Shown in pieces: positions 45,957 to 52,088 of a DNA stretch of 64,000 bases (within the stretch, counting starts at the first letter, position 1; every line of letters begins with the position of its first letter). The DNA lies in assembly GCF_017348835.2 (NCBI RefSeq), contig NZ_CP071375.1. The stretch is one strand, 5' to 3'. The translations under genes were made by a program, and so were the position numbers. The DNA comes from Escherichia coli (lineage in GTDB: Bacteria > Pseudomonadota > Gammaproteobacteria > Enterobacterales > Enterobacteriaceae). Below the pieces are notes generated by a model that saw nothing but the letters and a program-made list of their open reading frames with translations, did no database searches and was not told the DNA's origin.

Positions 45957-48842
45957 TTAAAAGCTGAAGCGATATCCTCCGTTGACTTGCTTCTGATCAA
46001 AGAGGTTACCCTGCGTGTAATCCGCTTCGAGGTAGAATGTGTGCTGTTTGTTATACTGTGCACTGACTCCCACGCCGTTATTCCAGCCATTACCTTTGAA
46101 ACTGTACTTCTCCCGGGAGTTGTTCAACAGATATTCTGTATCCCCTGAAAACTCGCGGATAGCGCCAGTCTTCACATACATATTCAGCTGGCTGTTGCCT
46201 GCGGTGATGTCATATCCCAGTATCATACTGGCACGCCCCAGCAGCGATTCGTAGTGATTCAGATGTATATTGAGGCCATTACTCGCCTTCATAGCCATCT
46301 CATTCTGGTGGCTGTATGTGAGCTGGGTTTGCGGCTCTATATAGAACCCATAACCAGTAGGGGTCAGGTTGAATCTCTGCCCGGCTTCCAGGGAGATGCT
46401 CAATCCATTCGCAGTGCCGTTGGCGTTAACGCCGTTGTTCTGACTGTCCCGTACGTGGAAACTATTTTTCTGGCGCGATGCTTTTACAACGAGATCGCTG
46501 TAAAAACCGCTGTGTGCCATGTAACTGGCGTACATTCCCATATAGTCTGAACGTGCGGTACCGTCGCCTCCGCTATAGTCCGGCGATGCATGTGTTGAGC
46601 CAATATACAGACCGACATACAACGGCATTTCATCAGAGAGACGTTTATCCCCACCAAACTGGATACCGCTGTAACCCATGTCAAAGCCGCTCAGTTTGCC
46701 ACTGGCGAAGGAGTCCAGGCTTCCCCCATAACTGCGCAGCCAGATATTACCGTCTTTACTCTGATTTCGCAGGTCACCCATCCGTTGCATCAGCGTACGG
46801 TTTTCAACATAGTTCAATAAGTAACCAACATTGAGATAATTGCCGCCAGCATCTGCGGTCGTGGTGGGTTTAGGTGTGGGCGTGGGGGTAGGCGTAGGAT
46901 CGGGTTCAGGCGTAGGATCGGGGTTGACTATGGGAGGCTGAGCGGGAGCCGGCGTTGGTTCAGGATTTGGAGTCGGCTCCGGAATTGTCCCGGAAGCATA
47001 AAGCTCCCAGTTAGTGCCATTTTTACGCACATCGTACAGATATCCTCCCAACTCAACCTGAGAAGACGCGCTGAACGAGGCCGCGCCGTCAGTGGTTTTT
47101 ACCACTGTCAGAACTTCATTTCCCGTTGTGGCTTCGCTGCCCTGGTTACGGATAGCCAATACATGATTACCAGCACTACTCCCGCTGATATTCAATAAAT
47201 CCCCTTTATTATTAACGCCATTACCCTCGCCAACAACATCAGCACGCATAATAAAGGTACTGTTACCGCTCAGGTTCTCTACGTTTAATGTGGTAAATGT
47301 GCCGGCAGTTGATGCGTGGCTGGCAAAATCGACAGTTGAATGGCTCAGCGCCAGCGTGTCGAGATTAGAATTACTTGTTACGTTCCAGACGCTGTTATTC
47401 ATTGCAACGTCCAGTTTCCCGTCATTGACATTATCGCTAAGGGAGGAACCTGTCCAAGCCGACCCAGGGTGCATATCCAGATTGATTAGCCCACCTTTGG
47501 AGAGAACGCTACCGTTGATAAGCATACGACCCGAAGCGTTGATGCGGCTGGCGGCATAACCATCGTCATGTTGCGTTGCGATGGCCATCTGGTCGGGTGT
47601 ACTCATATCAATGACCAGATCGCTCGTGAGGTCGATCTGGCTGTTGGTCATGGCATAAATCCCCCTGGCTCCTGCCGCGCCGGTGATAGCCAAACTGTCT
47701 CCGGTTATTCTACCGCCGCTGAGCGCCCACAAACCCAGCGCCAGACTGCCATTACGATCAACCGTAATATCGGTATTTTGCATGTTGATAACAGCCGTTG
47801 CCGTCTGGGCCGAGGCACCATAAGAACCGCCGGAAAAGATGCTGTTTCGTTGCGCTGCCGTGCCAGAAAAATTGATTGTCGCGTCTGAACCACTGGCTAC
47901 GAGACCACCGCCCTGCGCGGAAGAAATATGGCTATCTGCACCGATAGTGGTTGTACCACCACGAACTTCGACGCCATTGGCCGCGGCTCCAGTTACATCA
48001 ACAGTGAGTGCATTCGCGCTAACCTGGCCAAAGCTCCAGAGGCCGTGTGCATTATCGCCACTGGTTTTAATGGAACTGTTTGTTCCGAGATCGACAACAG
48101 AGTTTTTCTGTACGTTTATCCCCATGGCGCTGTAACCCTGAACATCGATTGTCAGGTCTGTCGCCGTAAAACGCGCAGCACCATTGGCGTTATTGCCGTT
48201 GAGACCACCGATATAAACACCTGTACTTCCATCGGTCTTGATTTTACTTCCGCTTCCAAGATCGACACTGGTGCCATAGTCATTGATGGTTAGGCCTATA
48301 CCGTTCGAGTTTTCAATGGTGAATTGAGTGGCTGTTAGTGTTGAGCTATGCCCAATAATGATGCCGTCATCGTTACTCTTAATGGTGCTGCCTGTGCCTA
48401 AGTCAGCATGGGTATAGTCACCAATTAAATTAATGCCGATGGCAGAGGTTTGACCAACAACATCTACTGTGAGTCGGTTAGCTGTCAGGGAGCTGTTTTT
48501 GCCCTGAATAATGATTCCTTTTGCATATCCAGAGGCGTCGTTGACATTGACGGTGACATCATTACCCAGGTTGATATTGCCAGGCGTGTTTCCTGCTGGG
48601 GTCATTACACCATAGAGGTTTCCTGATGGATCGGCGGTATCTCCTGTAATTCTGTCACCATCATTAATAGTAATATTGGTGCCATATTGACTTCCTGTAT
48701 CAGCAGCTATCAGCAGGGGGGAAAAGATAATTGCATTCAAACCAATAGCGCCAAATTTTATCAGTTGAATTGAGGGCGAACGGATTTTTAATTCAGCGAG
48801 ACGATCGGCTTTGGTATTCCCATTGTGTTGTTTGATGCCCAT
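45957..48842 (-). CDS. ycgV: autotransporter adhesin YcgV
   Basis: 961-aa ORF with a Pro/Thr/Glu-rich linker (PEPTPNPEPTPAP...), a C-terminal beta-barrel ending ...GGYRFSF; synteny after dhaR. Confidence 0.85.
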   Translation of the reverse strand: MGIKQHNGNTKADRLAELKIRSPSIQLIKFGAIGLNAIIFSPLLIAADTGSQYGTNITINDGDRITGDTADPSGNLYGVMTPAGNTPGNINLGNDVTVNVNDASGYAKGIIIQGKNSSLTANRLTVDVVGQTSAIGINLIGDYTHADLGTGSTIKSNDDGIIIGHSSTLTATQFTIENSNGIGLTINDYGTSVDLGSGSKIKTDGSTGVYIGGLNGNNANGAARFTATDLTIDVQGYSAMGINVQKNSVVDLGTNSSIKTSGDNAHGLWSFGQVSANALTVDVTGAAANGVEVRGGTTTIGADSHISSAQGGGLVASGSDATINFSGTAAQRNSIFSGGSYGASAQTATAVINMQNTDITVDRNGSLALGLWALSGGRITGDSLAITGAAGARGIYAMTNSQIDLTSDLVIDMSTPDQMAIATQHDDGYAASRINASGRMLINGSVLSKGGLINLDMHPGSAWTGSSLSDNVNDGKLDVAMNNSVWNVTSNSNLDTLALSHSTVDFASHASTAGTFTTLNVENLSGNSTFIMRADVVGEGNGVNNKGDLLNISGSSAGNHVLAIRNQGSEATTGNEVLTVVKTTDGAASFSASSQVELGGYLYDVRKNGTNWELYASGTIPEPTPNPEPTPAPAQPPIVNPDPTPEPDPTPTPTPTPKPTTTADAGGNYLNVGYLLNYVENRTLMQRMGDLRNQSKDGNIWLRSYGGSLDSFASGKLSGFDMGYSGIQFGGDKRLSDEMPLYVGLYIGSTHASPDYSGGDGTARSDYMGMYASYMAHSGFYSDLVVKASRQKNSFHVRDSQNNGVNANGTANGLSISLEAGQRFNLTPTGYGFYIEPQTQLTYSHQNEMAMKASNGLNIHLNHYESLLGRASMILGYDITAGNSQLNMYVKTGAIREFSGDTEYLLNNSREKYSFKGNGWNNGVGVSAQYNKQHTFYLEADYTQGNLFDQKQVNGGYRFSF

Positions 48843-49012
48843 ACCACTCCTATATAGTACCCAGGCTATGGGTCTATGGATTTTGTCATTTTGTTTAAGT
48901 CAATGAATAATATCCTCTTATCATCATGATATTTGTATGGTGCAATCATGATGAGCTTTGAACCGCCCCGGAAATCCTGGAGACTAAACTCCCTGAGAAA
49001 GAGGTAAACAGG

Positions 49013-49339
49013 ATGACTAAAAATACTCGTTTTTCCCCCGAAGTCCGTCAGCGGGCGATTCGTATGGTTCTGGAAAGTCAGGATGAATATGACTCACAGT
49101 GGGCGGCAATTTGTTCCATTGCCCCAAAGATTGGCTGTACGCCGGAGACTCTGCGTGTCTGGGTTCGCCAGCATGAGCGGGATACCGGGAGTGGTGATGG
49201 TGGACTCACCACCGCTGAACGTCAGCGTCTGAAAGAGCTGGAACGTGAAAATCGTGAACTGCGCCGCAGTAACGATATCCTTCGCCAGGCTTCCGCTTAT
49301 TTTGCGAAGGCGGAGTTCGACCGCCTCTGGAAAAAATAA
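49013..49339 (+). CDS. IS629 OrfA
   Basis: 108-aa product identical to the copy 1 OrfA. Confidence 0.85.
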
Positions 49340-50226
49340 TGCCACTGCTGGATAAGCTGCGTGAGCAGTACGGGGTCGGACCGGTATGCAGCGAACTGCA
49401 TATTGCCCCGTCAACGTATTACCATTGTCAGCAACAGCGACATCATCCGGATAAACGCAGTGCCCGTGCGCAGCACGATGACTGGCTGAAGAAAGAGATA
49501 CAGCGCGTATACGATGAAAATCACCAGGTATACGGTGTGCGTAAAGTCTGGCGTCAGTTGTTACGGGAAGGTATCAGAGTGGCCAGATGCACTGTGGCAC
49601 GTCTCATGGCAGTTATGGGACTTGCCGGTGTTCTCCGGGGTAAAAAGGTCCGCACTACCGTCAGCCGGAAAGCCGTTGCCGCATGCGACCGCGTAAACCG
49701 TCAGTTCGTGGCAGAACGTCCAGACCAGTTGTGGGTGGCTGATTTTACCTGGGTAAGCACATGGCAGGGCTTCGTTTATGTGGCGTTCATCATTGATGTG
49801 TTCGCCGGATACATCGTGGGATGGCAGGTCTCATCATCCATGGAAACAACATTCGTGCTGGATGCACTGGAGCAGGCGTTGTGGGCCCGTCGGCCGTCCG
49901 GCACAATCCATCACAGTGATAAAGGTTCTCAGTATGTATCGCTGGCCTACACGCAGCGGCTTAAGGAAGCCGGATTACTGGCATCAACAGGGAGTACTGG
50001 CGACTCGTATGACAACGCGATGGCTGAGAGCATCAATGGTCTTTACAAAGCGGAGGTAATACACCGTAAGAGCTGGAAAAACCGTGCAGAAGTGGAACTG
50101 GCCACACTCACGTGGGTGGACTGGTATAACAATCGACGATTGCTGGAAAGGCTGGGCCATATTCCTCCGGCAGAAGCAGAAAAAGCTTATTATGCTTCCA
50201 TCGGAAATAATGATCTGGCAGCCTGA
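49339..50226 (+). CDS. IS629 OrfB (DDE transposase)
   Basis: 295 aa; one substitution relative to copy 1 (RAEV vs RTEV). Confidence 0.85.
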   Translation: MPLLDKLREQYGVGPVCSELHIAPSTYYHCQQQRHHPDKRSARAQHDDWLKKEIQRVYDENHQVYGVRKVWRQLLREGIRVARCTVARLMAVMGLAGVLRGKKVRTTVSRKAVAACDRVNRQFVAERPDQLWVADFTWVSTWQGFVYVAFIIDVFAGYIVGWQVSSSMETTFVLDALEQALWARRPSGTIHHSDKGSQYVSLAYTQRLKEAGLLASTGSTGDSYDNAMAESINGLYKAEVIHRKSWKNRAEVELATLTWVDWYNNRRLLERLGHIPPAEAEKAYYASIGNNDLAA

Positions 50227-50913
50227 GTTCACAGATAAAACACTCTCCAGGAAACCCGGGGCGGTTCACTTCTCTGAGAATAATTCTCTATTACCGGGCA
50301 AAATCAGGAACACAGGAATTAATATATATTTAACATCCCCCTTACAAAGGTGAGTTTATATCGAGTTATTCCCTAAGTTGTCGTTACTTATTCCAATTCG
50401 TTACTATGAATATGGCAAAAATATTACAACAAACAGCGGTTAAAAAATTTGGTGAAGATTTTTGTAATAATCCTAATTAGTTATGGGATTTTCGCTTGAT
50501 GTATCTGCATAACAAAAACAATATGCGCCATTTTTGCATTACTAATAAGAAAAAGCAAAAAACATCGATATTCATTTTTGGTCAATGGGTTTTCTGGCCT
50601 ATCGTTGTTATTGTGCTACTGGTTATCATTTTCATCTTGCCAGGATCGCACGTAATCACGTTATTCGGGGACTTTATCTGCGGGATATTACCCTTCAGGT
50701 AAGTCCTTTTCTCGCCAGCATATTGGAGCGTGATCAATATTGATCAGCTGTGAAGGGGGCTGATGTGTAGTGGAACAAAAACTGACGTTATATCACTGCT
50801 AATGAGATATCCGTCATCTGAACACTTATGTCTTTAATTATTTTGGTGGTCACTGTAGGCAATAAGCACAAAAGTGTAGGATGTTACAAGAATGATTAGG
50901 ACTCGGTGAAATG

Positions 50914-50944
50914 AAAAATCCACGCAATTGCGTGGATTTTATAT
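50914..50944. terminator. bidirectional rho-independent terminator downstream of ychF
   Basis: Perfect palindrome AAAATCCACGCAA/TTGCGTGGATTTT with T-runs on both strands. Confidence 0.65.
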
Positions 50945-50996
50945 ACTTTTGCGCTCTTCATGAGATTTAGCGAAACCTCATGAGACAATAAATTAA

Positions 50997-52088
50997 TTAG
51001 ACGTTGAAAAGGAAGTTCATCACATCGCCATCTTTCACGATGTAATCTTTACCTTCTGCACGCATTTTGCCTGCTTCTTTCGCGCCTTGTTCACCTTTGT
51101 AAGTGATGAAATCTTCAAACGAGATGGTTTGTGCACGGATAAAGCCTTTTTCAAAATCAGTATGGATTTTGCCCGCTGCCTGCGGCGCGGTTGCTCCAAC
51201 CGGAATGGTCCATGCACGCACTTCTTTCACCCCAGCGGTGAAGTAAGTTTGCAGGTTCAGCAGCTTATAACCGGCACGGATCACACGGTTCAGGCCCGGC
51301 TCTTCCAGCCCAAGCTCCTGCATAAACTCGTCACGTTCTTCGTCGTCCAGTTCGGCAATGTCTGCTTCAACAGCAGCACAAACCGGAACCACAACAGAAC
51401 CTTCTTTCGCCGCGATTTCACGCACCTGGTCAAGATATGGGTTGTTTTCAAAACCGTCTTCGTTGACGTTGGCGATGTACATTGTTGGTTTCAGCGTCAG
51501 GAAGCTCAGGTAACGAATAGCCGCTTTCTCTTCAGCGCTTAAATCCAGCGCGCGCAGCATACCTGCGTTTTCCAGCTGGGGCAGGCATTTTTCCAGGACC
51601 GCCAGCTCAGCTTTCGCGTCTTTATCGCCACCTTTGGCTTTCTTCTGTACGCGATGAATCGCACGTTCGCAGGTGTCGAGGTCTGCCAGCGCCAGTTCGG
51701 TGTTGATAACTTCAATATCGTCAGCCGGGTTAACTTTGCCGGAAACGTGAATGATGTTGTCATTTTCAAAGCAGCGAACAACGTGACCGATCGCTTCGGT
51801 TTCACGGATGTTAGTCAGGAACTGGTTACCCAGACCTTCGCCTTTCGATGCGCCTTTTACCAGACCGGCGATATCGACAAATTCCATGGTCGTGGGAAGC
51901 GTACGCTGCGGTTTTACGATTTCAGCCAGTTGATCCAGGCGAGGGTCAGGCATTGGTACGACGCCTGTGTTCGGCTCAATGGTGCAGAATGGAAAGTTGG
52001 CCGCTTCAATACCGGCTTTGGTCAGCGCGTTGAACAGGGTAGATTTCCCGACGTTGGGCAAACCGACGATACCGCATTTGAATCCCAT
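50997..52088 (-). CDS. ychF: ribosome-binding ATPase YchF (Obg family)
   Basis: 363-aa ORF with G1 motif GLPNVGKST. Confidence 0.95.

What the first reader, a model, noticed from the sequence alone, without database searches (positions are those of the whole stretch)
50270..50996. 730-bp intergenic region between IS629 copy 2 and ychF with a small hydrophobic ORF
ORF 50496..50702 (68 aa) contains a strongly hydrophobic stretch (FIFGQWVFWPIVVIVLLVIIFILPG). It could be a small membrane protein or a chance ORF in AT-rich DNA; I see no convincing ribosome-binding site.
Basis: inference. Interest (0 to 1): 0.2.

Follow-up and report, generated by a model that had tools for sequence, protein, structure and literature searches.

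The report
Orphan hydrophobic ORF upstream of ycgV
A 67-codon, membrane-protein-like reading frame sits in the AT-rich spacer between the adhesin gene ycgV and ychF of E. coli, but it changes as freely as the non-coding DNA around it and has no counterpart outside E. coli, so it is most likely not a working gene.

Summary
IS629 copy 2 ends at 50268, with a CTT target duplication. ychF stops at 50997. The spacer is 35.8% GC, and the ORF (TTG 50496 / ATG 50499 to 50702) encodes a very hydrophobic segment with only a weak, badly spaced GGGA as a ribosome-binding site.

The stretch is the ordinary E. coli ycgV–ychF spacer, here split from ycgV by the IS. It is the AT-rich upstream region of the horizontally acquired autotransporter gene ycgV. 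In K-12 this spacer is a catalogued H-NS-bound "promoter island". It also contains the conserved ychF 3'UTR hairpin and terminator.

The ORF is an E. coli/Shigella-only orphan. It is open in most genomes, but in three C-terminal forms (67, 84 and 59 aa; about 45% of genomes lack 25 codons).
- pN/pS is 0.5–0.7, against 0.015 for ychF and 0.29 for ycgV.
- It varies as much per site as its flanks.
- Nonsense and frameshift alleles occur.
- In Citrobacter farmeri-type loci, ycgV-upstream homology runs into about the first 25–32 codons of the ORF, with no start codon and with stops in that frame.

RefSeq does not annotate it. Some GenBank records do (EDL933_1906). One caveat remains: the period-3 T pattern of the membrane-like segment is coding-like. 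A young or relic gene is therefore not excluded (about 0.2–0.3). Interest is low.

The parts
45957..48842 (-). ycgV, an AIDA/pertactin-type autotransporter adhesin gene (context). The finding region is its upstream DNA.
   Evidence: 961-aa ORF. Annotated as ycgV in the 100%-identical strain PE164. Pfam Pertactin and Autotransporter domains on its homologues.
48959..50268 (+). IS629-type IS3-family element, copy 2 (context). It is inserted 116 nt upstream of the ycgV ATG and flanked by the 3-bp target duplication CTT (48956-48958 and 50269-50271).
   Evidence: Alignment with K-12 and O157, which lack the IS. Ends and duplication computed. ALIL frameshift pseudoknot at 49294-49410, 120 bits. PGAP calls it an IS3 family transposase.
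50272..50905 (-). Distal part of the AT-rich upstream spacer of ycgV. By coordinate mapping, the K-12 'promoter island' 1255333-1255633 corresponds to about 50314-50614.
   Evidence: Contiguous with the 116 nt next to ycgV in K-12, O157 and 18 other genomes. 35.8% GC. Listed as a promoter island that binds H-NS in all ChIP studies (PMC3661553). About 70% identical to the upstream region of the Citrobacter ycgV orthologue, out to about 50580. No feature is annotated here by PGAP in any sampled genome except one.
50499..50702 (+). Orphan ORF of 67 codons from the ATG (68 from TTG 50496), including the TAA stop: MYLHNKNNMRHFCITNKKKQKTSIFIFGQWVFWPIVVIVLLVIIFILPGSHVITLFGDFICGILPFR.
   Evidence: Only E. 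coli/Shigella variants are found among 5.8 billion proteins and 1.84 billion cluster representatives. No Pfam or NCBIfam family. pN/pS 0.52-0.70.
50565..50642 (+). Membrane-segment-like stretch (codons 23-48). T occupies codon position 2 in 19 of 26 codons, with 13 NTN codons in a row.
   Evidence: It is also the most variable part of the ORF (10 changes in 45 nt) and shows a recombination patch.
50639..50713 (.). 75-bp segment bounded by GCCAG direct repeats (50639-50643 and 50714-50718). It is deleted in frame in K-12-type alleles, which removes 25 codons and gives a 59-aa form.
   Evidence: Alignments. Frequency of about 43-47%, from the spread rows and from 18 of 39 metagenomic loci.
50731..50746 (.). 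Perfect 16-bp palindrome TGATCAATATTGATCA with two GATC sites. It is broken in K-12 and O157.
   Evidence: Read. Variants seen.
50915..50940 (.). Intrinsic terminator hairpin of ychF (AAAATCCACGC-AATT-GCGTGGATTTT) with T runs on both strands, so it could also end + strand transcripts.
   Evidence: An identical stem lies downstream of ychF in more than 70 Enterobacterales species, but those loci were selected by this pattern.
50957..50986 (-). Hairpin 1 of the ychF 3'UTR (on the mRNA strand, TCTCATGAGG...AATCTCATGA).
   Evidence: 37-species alignment A3: 90.7% of cells paired, 5 of 9 pairs with compensatory changes, and covariation above all 500 shuffles.
50997..52088 (-). ychF (context), used as the control for selection.
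   Evidence: pN/pS 0.015 in the same genomes.

Best explanation
The 727 bp are the outer part of the normal E. coli ycgV-ychF spacer. In this strain an IS629 insertion, 116 nt upstream of the ycgV start codon, has separated it from ycgV.

The spacer has two parts. (a) The AT-rich upstream region of the horizontally acquired autotransporter gene ycgV. This is DNA of the kind H-NS coats and silences, and in K-12 it is catalogued as a 'promoter island'. (b) The last ~90 nt, which are the 3'UTR of ychF: a structured hairpin followed by an intrinsic terminator with T runs on both sides.

The 67-codon hydrophobic ORF is a real open frame, but it is an orphan confined to E. coli and Shigella. Its first ~25-32 codons lie in DNA that is non-coding ycgV-upstream sequence in Citrobacter. 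Its membrane-like part lies in E. coli-specific T-rich DNA. It accumulates substitutions, indels and stop codons like its non-coding flanks. It is therefore most likely not a functional gene. At most it is an occasionally translated proto-gene, of the kind T-rich spacers tend to produce.

Shown here: the anatomy, the distribution, the substitution pattern, and the lack of the frame outside E. coli. Taken from the literature: H-NS binding and promoter-island status. Inferred: that no functional protein is made.
For: Anatomy. K-12, O157 and 18 other genomes have the spacer uninterrupted, at 764-844 bp.

Distribution. The region is present in 4117-4726 of 5426 complete E. coli genomes. In ST131 it is replaced by a 29-kb integrase island.

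Annotation. PGAP annotates nothing here in about 90 sampled rows. In the single exception it calls a different, overlapping frame.

Literature. The K-12 spacer is promoter island 1255333_301, H-NS-bound in all ChIP data sets (PMC3661553).

No relatives. Only E. coli/Shigella variants turn up in 5.8 billion proteins and in an exhaustive HMMER search of 1.84 billion representatives. There is no Pfam or NCBIfam family, no phage match, and the only 'plasmid' matches are E. coli records, three of them chromosome-sized (4.8-4.9 Mb).

Selection. In 21 genomes there are 16 non-synonymous to 8 synonymous changes. In 60 sequences the count is 24 to 9, including one nonsense and one stop loss, which is 73% non-synonymous against 73-79% expected under neutrality. 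pN/pS is 0.52-0.70, against 0.015 for ychF and 0.29 for ycgV. Changes per 100 nt are 16.2 in the ORF, 13.5 upstream and 16.5 downstream.

Unstable product. There are three C-terminal forms. Stop loss (TAA to CAA) gives 84 aa, and the 75-bp deletion gives 59 aa in about 45% of genomes.

Disrupted alleles. W30* occurs in a 15x, 248-kb contig, along with one frameshift inside the membrane segment and one near the C-terminus, among 39 loci sampled without regard to the ORF.

Outside E. coli. The upstream region of the 83%-identical ycgV orthologue in Citrobacter farmeri-type loci aligns at about 70% up to about codons 25-32. It has no ATG, a 1-nt frameshift and stops, and then homology ends.

Translation signal. 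The Shine-Dalgarno match is weak and poorly spaced.
Against: The frame is open in all 21 complete genomes. About 2.9 indel events would be expected in it at the rate of the flanks, yet the only indels seen there are in frame (75 nt and 6 nt). By my rough Poisson estimate, the chance of seeing no frameshift is about 0.05.

The hydrophobic segment is far beyond shuffles (0.025-0.5%). T sits at codon position 2 in 19 of 26 codons. Across 128 kb of both strands, this pattern occurs otherwise only in nhaB, in dauA and antisense to a coding gene.

The lysine-rich stretch just before the hydrophobic segment fits the positive-inside rule. All six changes within the 13-codon NTN run keep a hydrophobic residue (p about 0.09). 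Some GenBank submitters annotate it as 'membrane protein' (EDL933_1906).

No expression data could be consulted, so translation is neither shown nor excluded. Other Escherichia species could not be examined.
Confidence: 0.65

Rival explanations
1. A genuine, young, E. coli-specific small inner-membrane protein. It would be single-pass, with the lysine-rich N-terminus in the cytoplasm. It would be transcribed divergently from ycgV and terminated at the two-way ychF terminator. Selection would act only on the N-terminal part plus the membrane segment (about 47 residues), leaving the C-terminus free to vary.
For: The ORF is open in 21 of 21 genomes and 36 of 39 metagenomic loci, and both indels seen in intact alleles are in frame. 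The common core of 47 residues is shared by the 59-, 67- and 84-aa forms. The period-3 T pattern and extreme hydrophobicity are unusual. Changes inside the NTN run are conservative: V/I, L/I and F/L. The gene layout is plausible, with a terminator carrying T runs on the + strand as well. PredictProtein, as reported in PMC4765031 supplement 1, gives one membrane helix and an inner-membrane location.
Against: pN/pS is 0.5-0.7, and diversity at non-synonymous sites equals that of the flanking non-coding DNA. Radical changes occur in the helix: G28D/E and P34H/L/S. Nonsense and frameshift alleles exist in nature. There is no homologue and no conserved frame outside E. coli. The ribosome-binding site is weak. 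The DNA is H-NS-bound and reported as transcriptionally suppressed. PGAP/RefSeq rejects the ORF. It is absent from about 24% of E. coli genomes.
Confidence: 0.2
2. A relic. The membrane-segment part would be a fossil fragment of a former membrane-protein gene that once lay next to the ychF terminator. After the ycgV segment arrived, the fragment would have been joined by chance, in frame, to an ATG in the ycgV upstream DNA. The coding-like periodicity would then be inherited and not maintained.
For: Homology with the Citrobacter ycgV upstream region stops around codons 25-32, at about the start of the membrane segment, so the ORF straddles a junction of two kinds of DNA. The period-3 T signal is strong while present-day evolution looks neutral. 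The site is a hotspot of insertion and replacement.
Against: No parent family was found for the hydrophobic part, either by word-indexed or by exhaustive HMMER searches. Nothing coding-like continues downstream in any frame. The fragment is too short for the test to have much power.
Confidence: 0.1
3. A type I toxin-antitoxin-like module. The ORF would be a small toxic membrane peptide kept silent by an antisense or overlapping small RNA and by a structured 5' leader.
For: It is a small hydrophobic peptide in an intergenic region, restricted to E. coli, with no good ribosome-binding site. This resembles the Ldr, Hok, Ibs and Zor toxins (resemblance recalled from my own knowledge).
Against: No RNA family matches in the region except terminator-type noise. 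It is single-copy, with a median of one place per genome, whereas these modules are usually repeated. At 67 aa, with a freely varying C-terminus, it is unlike known toxins. Nonsense alleles and the neutral pattern show nothing distinctive. No antisense promoter or terminator pair was seen.
Confidence: 0.03

Closest known systems
E. coli 'promoter islands': H-NS-bound, AT-rich spacers next to horizontally acquired genes (Panyukov and Ozoline 2013, PMC3661553)
   Same: The K-12 copy of this very spacer is entry 1255333_301, ycgV(-)/ychF(-), in their Table 1, marked as H-NS-bound in all studies. The region is AT-rich (35.8% GC). It adjoins a gene that is variably present in E. coli and sits in a different context in Citrobacter.
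   Different: In this strain the island is cut off from ycgV by IS629. H-NS binding and promoter density were not tested here. The simple sigma-70 scan found fewer sites than in shuffles.
Small single-pass inner-membrane proteins of E. coli (Hemm/Storz-type small proteins)
   Same: The size, one strongly hydrophobic helix, and a positively charged stretch before it.
   Different: There is no conservation outside E. coli, a near-neutral substitution pattern, a variable C-terminus, no convincing ribosome-binding site, and no evidence of translation that I could find.
Proto-genes with membrane-segment propensity arising from thymine-rich intergenic DNA (the 'TM-first' model described for yeast by Vakirlis et al. 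2020; recalled from my own knowledge, not read here)
   Same: An ORF on the T-rich strand of a spacer encoding a predicted membrane helix. It is lineage-restricted, under no detectable constraint, and straddles two kinds of non-coding DNA.
   Different: The model was described in yeast. Neither translation nor any benefit is shown here.
Type I toxins (Ldr, Hok, Ibs, ShoB, TisB, ZorO)
   Same: A small hydrophobic peptide encoded in an intergenic region of E. coli.
   Different: There is no sequence similarity, no partner RNA was found, it is single-copy, and it is longer than known toxins with an unconstrained C-terminus.

Membership tests
Functional small membrane protein gene | One predicted transmembrane helix with flanking positive charges | tested here: met
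   KD19 maximum of 2.96, with KKKQK before the helix. PredictProtein gives one helix in PMC4765031 supplement 1.
Functional small membrane protein gene | Purifying selection on the protein (pN/pS well below 1, and fewer changes than the flanks) | tested here: not met
   pN/pS is 0.52 (21 genomes) and 0.70 (60 sequences), against 0.015 for ychF and 0.29 for ycgV. The ORF has 16.2 changes per 100 nt, against 13.5 and 16.5 in the flanks.
Functional small membrane protein gene | Reading frame conserved in related species | tested here: not met
   There are no homologues beyond E. coli/Shigella. The homologous Citrobacter DNA lacks the start codon and the frame. Other Escherichia species could not be sampled.
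Functional small membrane protein gene | Frame kept intact within the species | tested here: inconclusive
   It is open in 21 of 21 genomes and 36 of 39 metagenomic loci. However, there are three C-terminal forms, one nonsense allele and two frameshift alleles. Divergence is too low for a strong test: the chance of no nonsense mutation among 23 substitutions is 0.4.
Functional small membrane protein gene | Translation initiation signal | tested here: not met
   GGGA at -4.0 kcal/mol, ending 10 nt before the ATG. 45% of all ATGs in the window score -3.0 or better.
Functional small membrane protein gene | Evidence of transcription and translation | not testable with these tools
   The peptide is not found in the held supplements of three ribosome-profiling papers. 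One of those files is truncated, and the ORF may have been excluded where it was already annotated.
Promoter island / H-NS-silenced foreign DNA | AT-rich relative to the genome | tested here: met
   35.8% GC against 49.9%.
Promoter island / H-NS-silenced foreign DNA | Association with a horizontally acquired, variably present gene | tested here: met
   The region and ycgV are absent from about 13-24% of E. coli genomes and are replaced by an island in ST131. The ycgV orthologue in Citrobacter lies in another context.
Promoter island / H-NS-silenced foreign DNA | H-NS occupancy and a dense cluster of promoter-like sites | not testable with these tools
   Taken from PMC3661553 Table 1 for K-12. 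The coordinates were mapped to about 50314-50614 by inference. The simple consensus scan found 1 site against 4.4 in shuffles.
Type I toxin-antitoxin | Partner antisense or overlapping small RNA | tested here: inconclusive
   No Rfam family matches beyond weak terminator-type hits, and no promoter/terminator pair was found. An undescribed RNA cannot be excluded.
Type I toxin-antitoxin | Sequence membership in a known toxin family | tested here: not met
   No Pfam or NCBIfam match.
Intrinsic terminator (ychF) | G+C-rich stem-loop followed by a T run directly after the gene | tested here: met
   11-bp stem, 4-nt loop and T runs. The same stem lies after ychF in more than 70 species.
IS3 family / IS629 | Terminal inverted repeats, a 3-bp target duplication, and two overlapping ORFs with a frameshift pseudoknot | tested here: met

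The most novel reading that the evidence does not exclude
The ORF is a newly born, E. coli-specific small inner-membrane protein. It would have been assembled across the junction between ycgV-upstream DNA (non-coding in Citrobacter) and T-rich E. coli-specific DNA. It would be normally silenced by H-NS and still close to neutral. That would make it a bacterial example of a membrane protein emerging from thymine-rich spacer DNA, caught with three C-terminal forms segregating in one species.
Probability: 0.15. Interest if true: 0.4.

Novelty: already known. Interest (0 to 1): 0.12.

Why it matters
It matters little for biology as it stands. The stretch is a known H-NS-bound spacer next to a cryptic adhesin gene, plus the ychF terminator. 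The ORF is one of many orphan frames that some annotators call and RefSeq drops.

The practical value is for annotation. Hydrophobicity and an open frame within one species are not enough to call a gene, because divergence inside E. coli is too low for frame retention to mean much.

If the ORF did prove to be translated and useful, it would be a tidy case of gene birth from T-rich spacer DNA, with natural truncated and extended alleles ready for comparison.

Tried and rejected
1. My single genome-contig scan used the ychF terminator stem as its pattern. The deeper within-genus test could therefore not be done, although the loci proved useful for the ychF 3'UTR.

2. Decayed integrase gene. tblastn of the ST131 integrase against the spacer found nothing. 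Local alignment of the spacer to the left end of the island scored no better than shuffles. Rejected.

3. Tandem or trinucleotide repeat as the source of the period-3 T pattern. Tandem Repeats Finder found none at a minimum score of 30. Rejected.

4. Known RNA family. Only the ALIL pseudoknot of the IS matched, plus sub-threshold Leu_leader hits on the terminator and a CrcZ hit at E = 0.6. Rejected.

5. Relatives on plasmids or phages. The plasmid hits are all E. coli records, three of them chromosome-sized (4.8-4.9 Mb). There were no phage matches.

6. Divergent protein hits at 59-78% identity turned out to be frameshifted E. coli alleles, many in homopolymer runs, and not distant homologues. 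The most divergent intact variant (P0040) comes from an ordinary E. coli with ychF 98.4% identical.

7. First ycgV selection control. It was invalid because of indels and was redone on an alignment.

8. Literature. EDL933_1906 appears only as a length-matched annotated control in PMC4765031, with no expression data. Nothing was found in the held ribosome-profiling supplements. The mBio small-protein paper is not held.
Full report
WHAT IS THERE. The window is E. coli. The 727 bases of the finding are 100% identical to strain PE164 and 95-98% identical to about 4100 other complete genomes. On the - strand lie ycgV (45957-48842, an autotransporter adhesin) and ychF (50997-52088). Between them sits an IS629-type element at 48959-50268. 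It is 1310 bp, has terminal repeats TGAACCGCCCCGG.., a 3-bp target duplication CTT at 48956-48958 and 50269-50271, and the ALIL frameshift pseudoknot at 49294-49410. K-12, O157:H7 and 18 further genomes have no IS here. In them, the 116 nt next to ycgV and the finding region form one uninterrupted spacer of 764-844 bp. The finding region is therefore the outer part of the ycgV upstream region plus the 3' flank of ychF, cut off from ycgV in this lineage by the IS.

CHECK OF THE OBSERVATION. The ORF exists: TTG 50496 or ATG 50499 to TAA 50702, giving 68 or 67 aa. In one genome the TTG is mutated while the ATG is kept, so the ATG is the conserved start. The hydrophobic stretch is real, with a Kyte-Doolittle 19-residue maximum of 2.96. 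GC content is 35.8%, against 49.9% for the window. The best pairing to the 16S rRNA 3' end is GGGA at -4.0 kcal/mol, ending 10 nt before the ATG. 45% of all ATGs in the window score -3.0 or better, so there is indeed no convincing ribosome-binding site.

The length of the ORF is not beyond chance. An ORF of 68 or more codons arises in 30% of dinucleotide-preserving shuffles. The hydrophobic segment is unusual. Only 0.5% of shuffles give an ORF of 50 or more aa with KD19 >= 2.5, and only 0.025% give one of 67 or more aa with KD19 >= 2.9. It is the most hydrophobic of the 388 small ORFs in the window.

Four others do reach it. One is ymgE, a real gene. One is antisense inside what coordinate mapping onto PE164 (offset by the extra IS629 copy) indicates is ypjA. 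Two are unannotated.

COMPARATIVE EVIDENCE INSIDE E. COLI. The region is present in 4117-4726 of 5426 complete genomes. RefSeq/PGAP annotates nothing under it in about 90 sampled rows. In the single exception (strain E200086), PGAP calls a different, overlapping frame.

Gene callers used for other collections do call the ORF. There are 94 protein clusters, all from E. coli or Shigella where named, labelled 'hypothetical' or 'membrane protein'. They show three length forms:
- 67 aa, as in this window.
- 84 aa, where the stop TAA has become CAA.
- 59 aa, the K-12 type, where 75 bp between two GCCAG repeats (50639-50643 and 50714-50718) are missing and the frame runs on to the stop used by the 84-aa form.

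The 59-aa form makes up about 43-47% of genomes (spread rows; 18 of 39 loci).

I aligned the spacer from this window and 20 genomes chosen down the identity ranking. The frame is open in all 21. The ORF carries 16 non-synonymous and 8 synonymous changes. Segregating sites per 100 nt are 11.3 in the ORF, 9.0 upstream and 11.4 downstream. In the same genomes, ychF has 2 non-synonymous and 41 synonymous changes (pN/pS 0.015), and the 5' part of ycgV has pN/pS 0.29. The ORF has pN/pS 0.52, which does not differ from neutrality (binomial p = 0.11 to 0.35).

I then took a sample that does not depend on the state of the ORF. It consisted of 49 metagenomic contigs found with a 19-mer downstream of the membrane segment, of which 39 cover the ORF. 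Pooled with the first set, this gives 60 sequences. There are 24 non-synonymous changes (including one nonsense and one stop loss) against 9 synonymous ones, or 73% against the 73-79% expected. That gives pN/pS 0.70. Changes per 100 nt are 16.2 in the ORF, against 13.5 and 16.5 in the flanks.

Three of the 39 loci carry disrupted alleles: W30* in a 248-kb contig at 15x coverage, a frameshift inside the membrane segment, and a frameshift near the C-terminus. A fourth has an in-frame 6-nt deletion. Some of these may be assembly errors, because ychF was also broken in 1 of 15 loci, a 2x contig. Per nucleotide, though, disruptions are about six times more frequent in the ORF.

COMPARATIVE EVIDENCE OUTSIDE E. 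COLI. An exhaustive HMMER search of 1.84 billion cluster representatives found only the E. coli variants. Pfam and NCBIfam give nothing. YcgV itself has orthologues at 81-83% identity in Citrobacter farmeri-type genomes, in another context with a porin gene upstream. Their 585-nt upstream region is also AT-rich (37% GC). It aligns at about 70% identity with the E. coli spacer, starting from the ycgV start codon and running into the first 25-32 codons of the ORF. The block CATTACTAATAAGAAAAAGCAAAAAACATC is almost unchanged. There the DNA has no ATG, one extra base and stop codons in the ORF's frame. Homology ends where the membrane segment begins, and the porin terminator follows.

The N-terminal part of the ORF is therefore conserved as non-coding ycgV-upstream DNA, and the hydrophobic part lies in E. 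coli-specific sequence. The reading frame is not conserved in the only outgroup I could reach.

WHAT SPEAKS FOR A GENE. The frame is kept in most genomes. At the indel rate of the flanks (about 9 events in about 640 nt), about 2.9 would be expected in the ORF. The only ones in intact alleles are in frame, giving a rough p of 0.05.

In the membrane segment, T occupies codon position 2 in 19 of 26 codons, against 8 and 10 at positions 1 and 3, and 13 NTN codons occur in a row. In the whole window, on both strands, such a 26-codon stretch occurs only in nhaB, in dauA, antisense to an acidic coding stretch at 26.0 kb, and here. No tandem repeat explains it. Changes inside the NTN run keep hydrophobic residues.

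This is a real, coding-like signal. It fits three readings: a young gene, a relic of a former gene, or simply the known tendency of T-rich DNA to encode membrane-like peptides. The segment is also the most variable part of the ORF, with 10 changes in 45 nt including G28D/E and P34H/L/S. It carries a recombination patch in some strains.

LITERATURE. The K-12 spacer is listed as promoter island 1255333_301, ycgV(-)/ychF(-). It is associated with a predicted foreign gene and is bound by H-NS in all ChIP data sets. Such islands are described as transcriptionally suppressed (PMC3661553). By coordinate mapping, this island corresponds to about 50314-50614 in the window (inference). A sigma-factor SELEX peak lies near the ychF terminator (PMC5493296). 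The O157 form of the ORF is locus EDL933_1906 in one re-annotation. It appears in PMC4765031 only as a length-matched annotated control, with one predicted helix and no homologues for ConSurf. I found no expression data.

THE YchF END OF THE REGION. The last ~90 nt (about 50906-50996) are the only deeply conserved part. They are 77-87% identical directly after ychF in about 60 Enterobacterales species, which is about as conserved as the gene itself. They hold the terminator hairpin (50915-50940) and a second hairpin (about 50957-50986, mRNA strand). In a 37-species alignment the second hairpin is 90.7% paired, has compensatory changes in 5 of 9 pairs, and exceeds all 500 shuffles. More distant genera have a hairpin of different sequence at the same place.

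The same spot is an integration site. A P4-type tyrosine integrase begins exactly 215 nt after the ychF stop in E. coli ST131, Pectobacterium, Pantoea, Serratia and a soil MAG. These integrases are 91-96% identical in protein sequence. Remnants occur in seven more species, and several genomes carry a second copy of the ~89-nt element. In ST131 a 29-kb island with retron Ec67 and other defence genes fills the ychF-dhaR interval in place of ycgV and the spacer. The spacer itself shows no trace of that island family.

VERDICT. The stretch is an ordinary, already catalogued piece of E. coli: the H-NS-bound upstream spacer of a cryptic, horizontally acquired adhesin gene, displaced by an IS, plus the ychF 3'UTR. 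The hydrophobic ORF is an E. coli-only orphan that evolves like non-coding DNA. My estimates are:
- about 0.65 that it is not a functional gene;
- about 0.2 that it is a young small membrane protein;
- about 0.1 that its hydrophobic part is a relic of a lost gene;
- about 0.03 that it is a type I toxin.

Interest is low.

Noticed in passing
window 50906-50996 (- strand); alignment A3; loci L007-L126: The ychF 3'UTR is conserved across about 60 Enterobacterales species (77-87% identity). It has an invariant terminator stem and an upstream hairpin supported by covariation (90.7% paired, 5 of 9 pairs compensatory, 0 of 500 shuffles as high). No Rfam family covers it, and I found no paper describing it. 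Part of the conservation may come from island-borne copies of the site.
   Followed up: partly
L006/L143 (ST131), L011, L032, L034, L042, L057/L058, L047, L045: The 3' end of ychF is an integration hotspot. A P4-type tyrosine integrase starts exactly 215 nt after the ychF stop in E. coli ST131, Pectobacterium versatile, Pantoea stewartii, Serratia oryzae and a MAG (91-96% identical protein). Remnants occur in seven more species. Some genomes hold a second copy of the ~89-nt element, or of the last ~95 nt of ychF, a few kb away. In ST131 the island is 29 kb and carries retron Ec67 and ABC-three-component defence genes in place of ycgV.
   Followed up: partly
window 50639-50718: A 75-bp segment bounded by 5-bp GCCAG direct repeats is missing in about 45% of E. 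coli genomes, including K-12. This looks like slippage between the short repeats. One strain (L141) combines the deletion with the downstream haplotype of full-length strains, so the deletion either recurred or recombined.
   Followed up: partly
window 50731-50746: A perfect 16-bp palindrome, TGATCAATATTGATCA, contains two Dam (GATC) sites about 450 nt upstream of where ycgV would be. My estimate of the chance expectation is about 0.01-0.03 per region. It is broken in K-12 (AATTTT centre), and both GATC sites are lost in O157, so it is probably not a conserved regulatory site.
   Followed up: partly
window 24600-25909 and 48959-50268: Two IS629 copies lie in the same orientation 24 kb apart. 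Copy 1 interrupts a hypothetical gene that is intact in the otherwise near-identical strain PE164 (478 aa, PE164 locus 25005-26441), so the window is not PE164 itself. Recombination between the two copies would delete the dha genes, treA and ycgV.
   Followed up: partly
window 9797-10024 (+) and 61438-61599 (+): Two further small ORFs, unannotated as far as checked, have strongly hydrophobic stretches (75 aa with KD19 2.51; 53 aa with KD19 2.61). By coordinate mapping onto PE164, the first lies in the minC-ycgJ spacer.
   Followed up: no
L127 1587-1745 (equivalent to window 50585-50743, + strand, another frame): In strain E200086, PGAP annotates a 52-aa 'hypothetical protein' in a frame that overlaps the ORF studied here. 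This shows how arbitrary gene calls are in this spacer.
   Followed up: partly
window about 50580-50625; loci L133, L153, L154: Some strains carry the window's haplotype throughout the spacer except for a patch of 7 differences within about 50 nt of the membrane-segment region, taken from the other major haplotype. The two haplotypes differ by about 15% there, against about 4-5% elsewhere in the spacer.
   Followed up: partly
L147-L151 (Citrobacter farmeri-type loci), upstream of the ycgV orthologue: Blocks of the ycgV upstream region are conserved between E. coli and Citrobacter despite the different genomic context. Examples are GGTAA.AATC.TA.TT..TGTGGGATTTTC and ATTA.TAATAAGAAAA.GCAAAAAAACATC. 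They are candidates for the ycgV promoter or regulator sites, and in this strain the IS separates them from ycgV.
   Followed up: no
window 50825-50982: Two sub-threshold Rfam 'Leu_leader' hits (31 bits against a gathering score of 50), one on each strand. They are caused by the terminator hairpin and are not a leader.
   Followed up: yes
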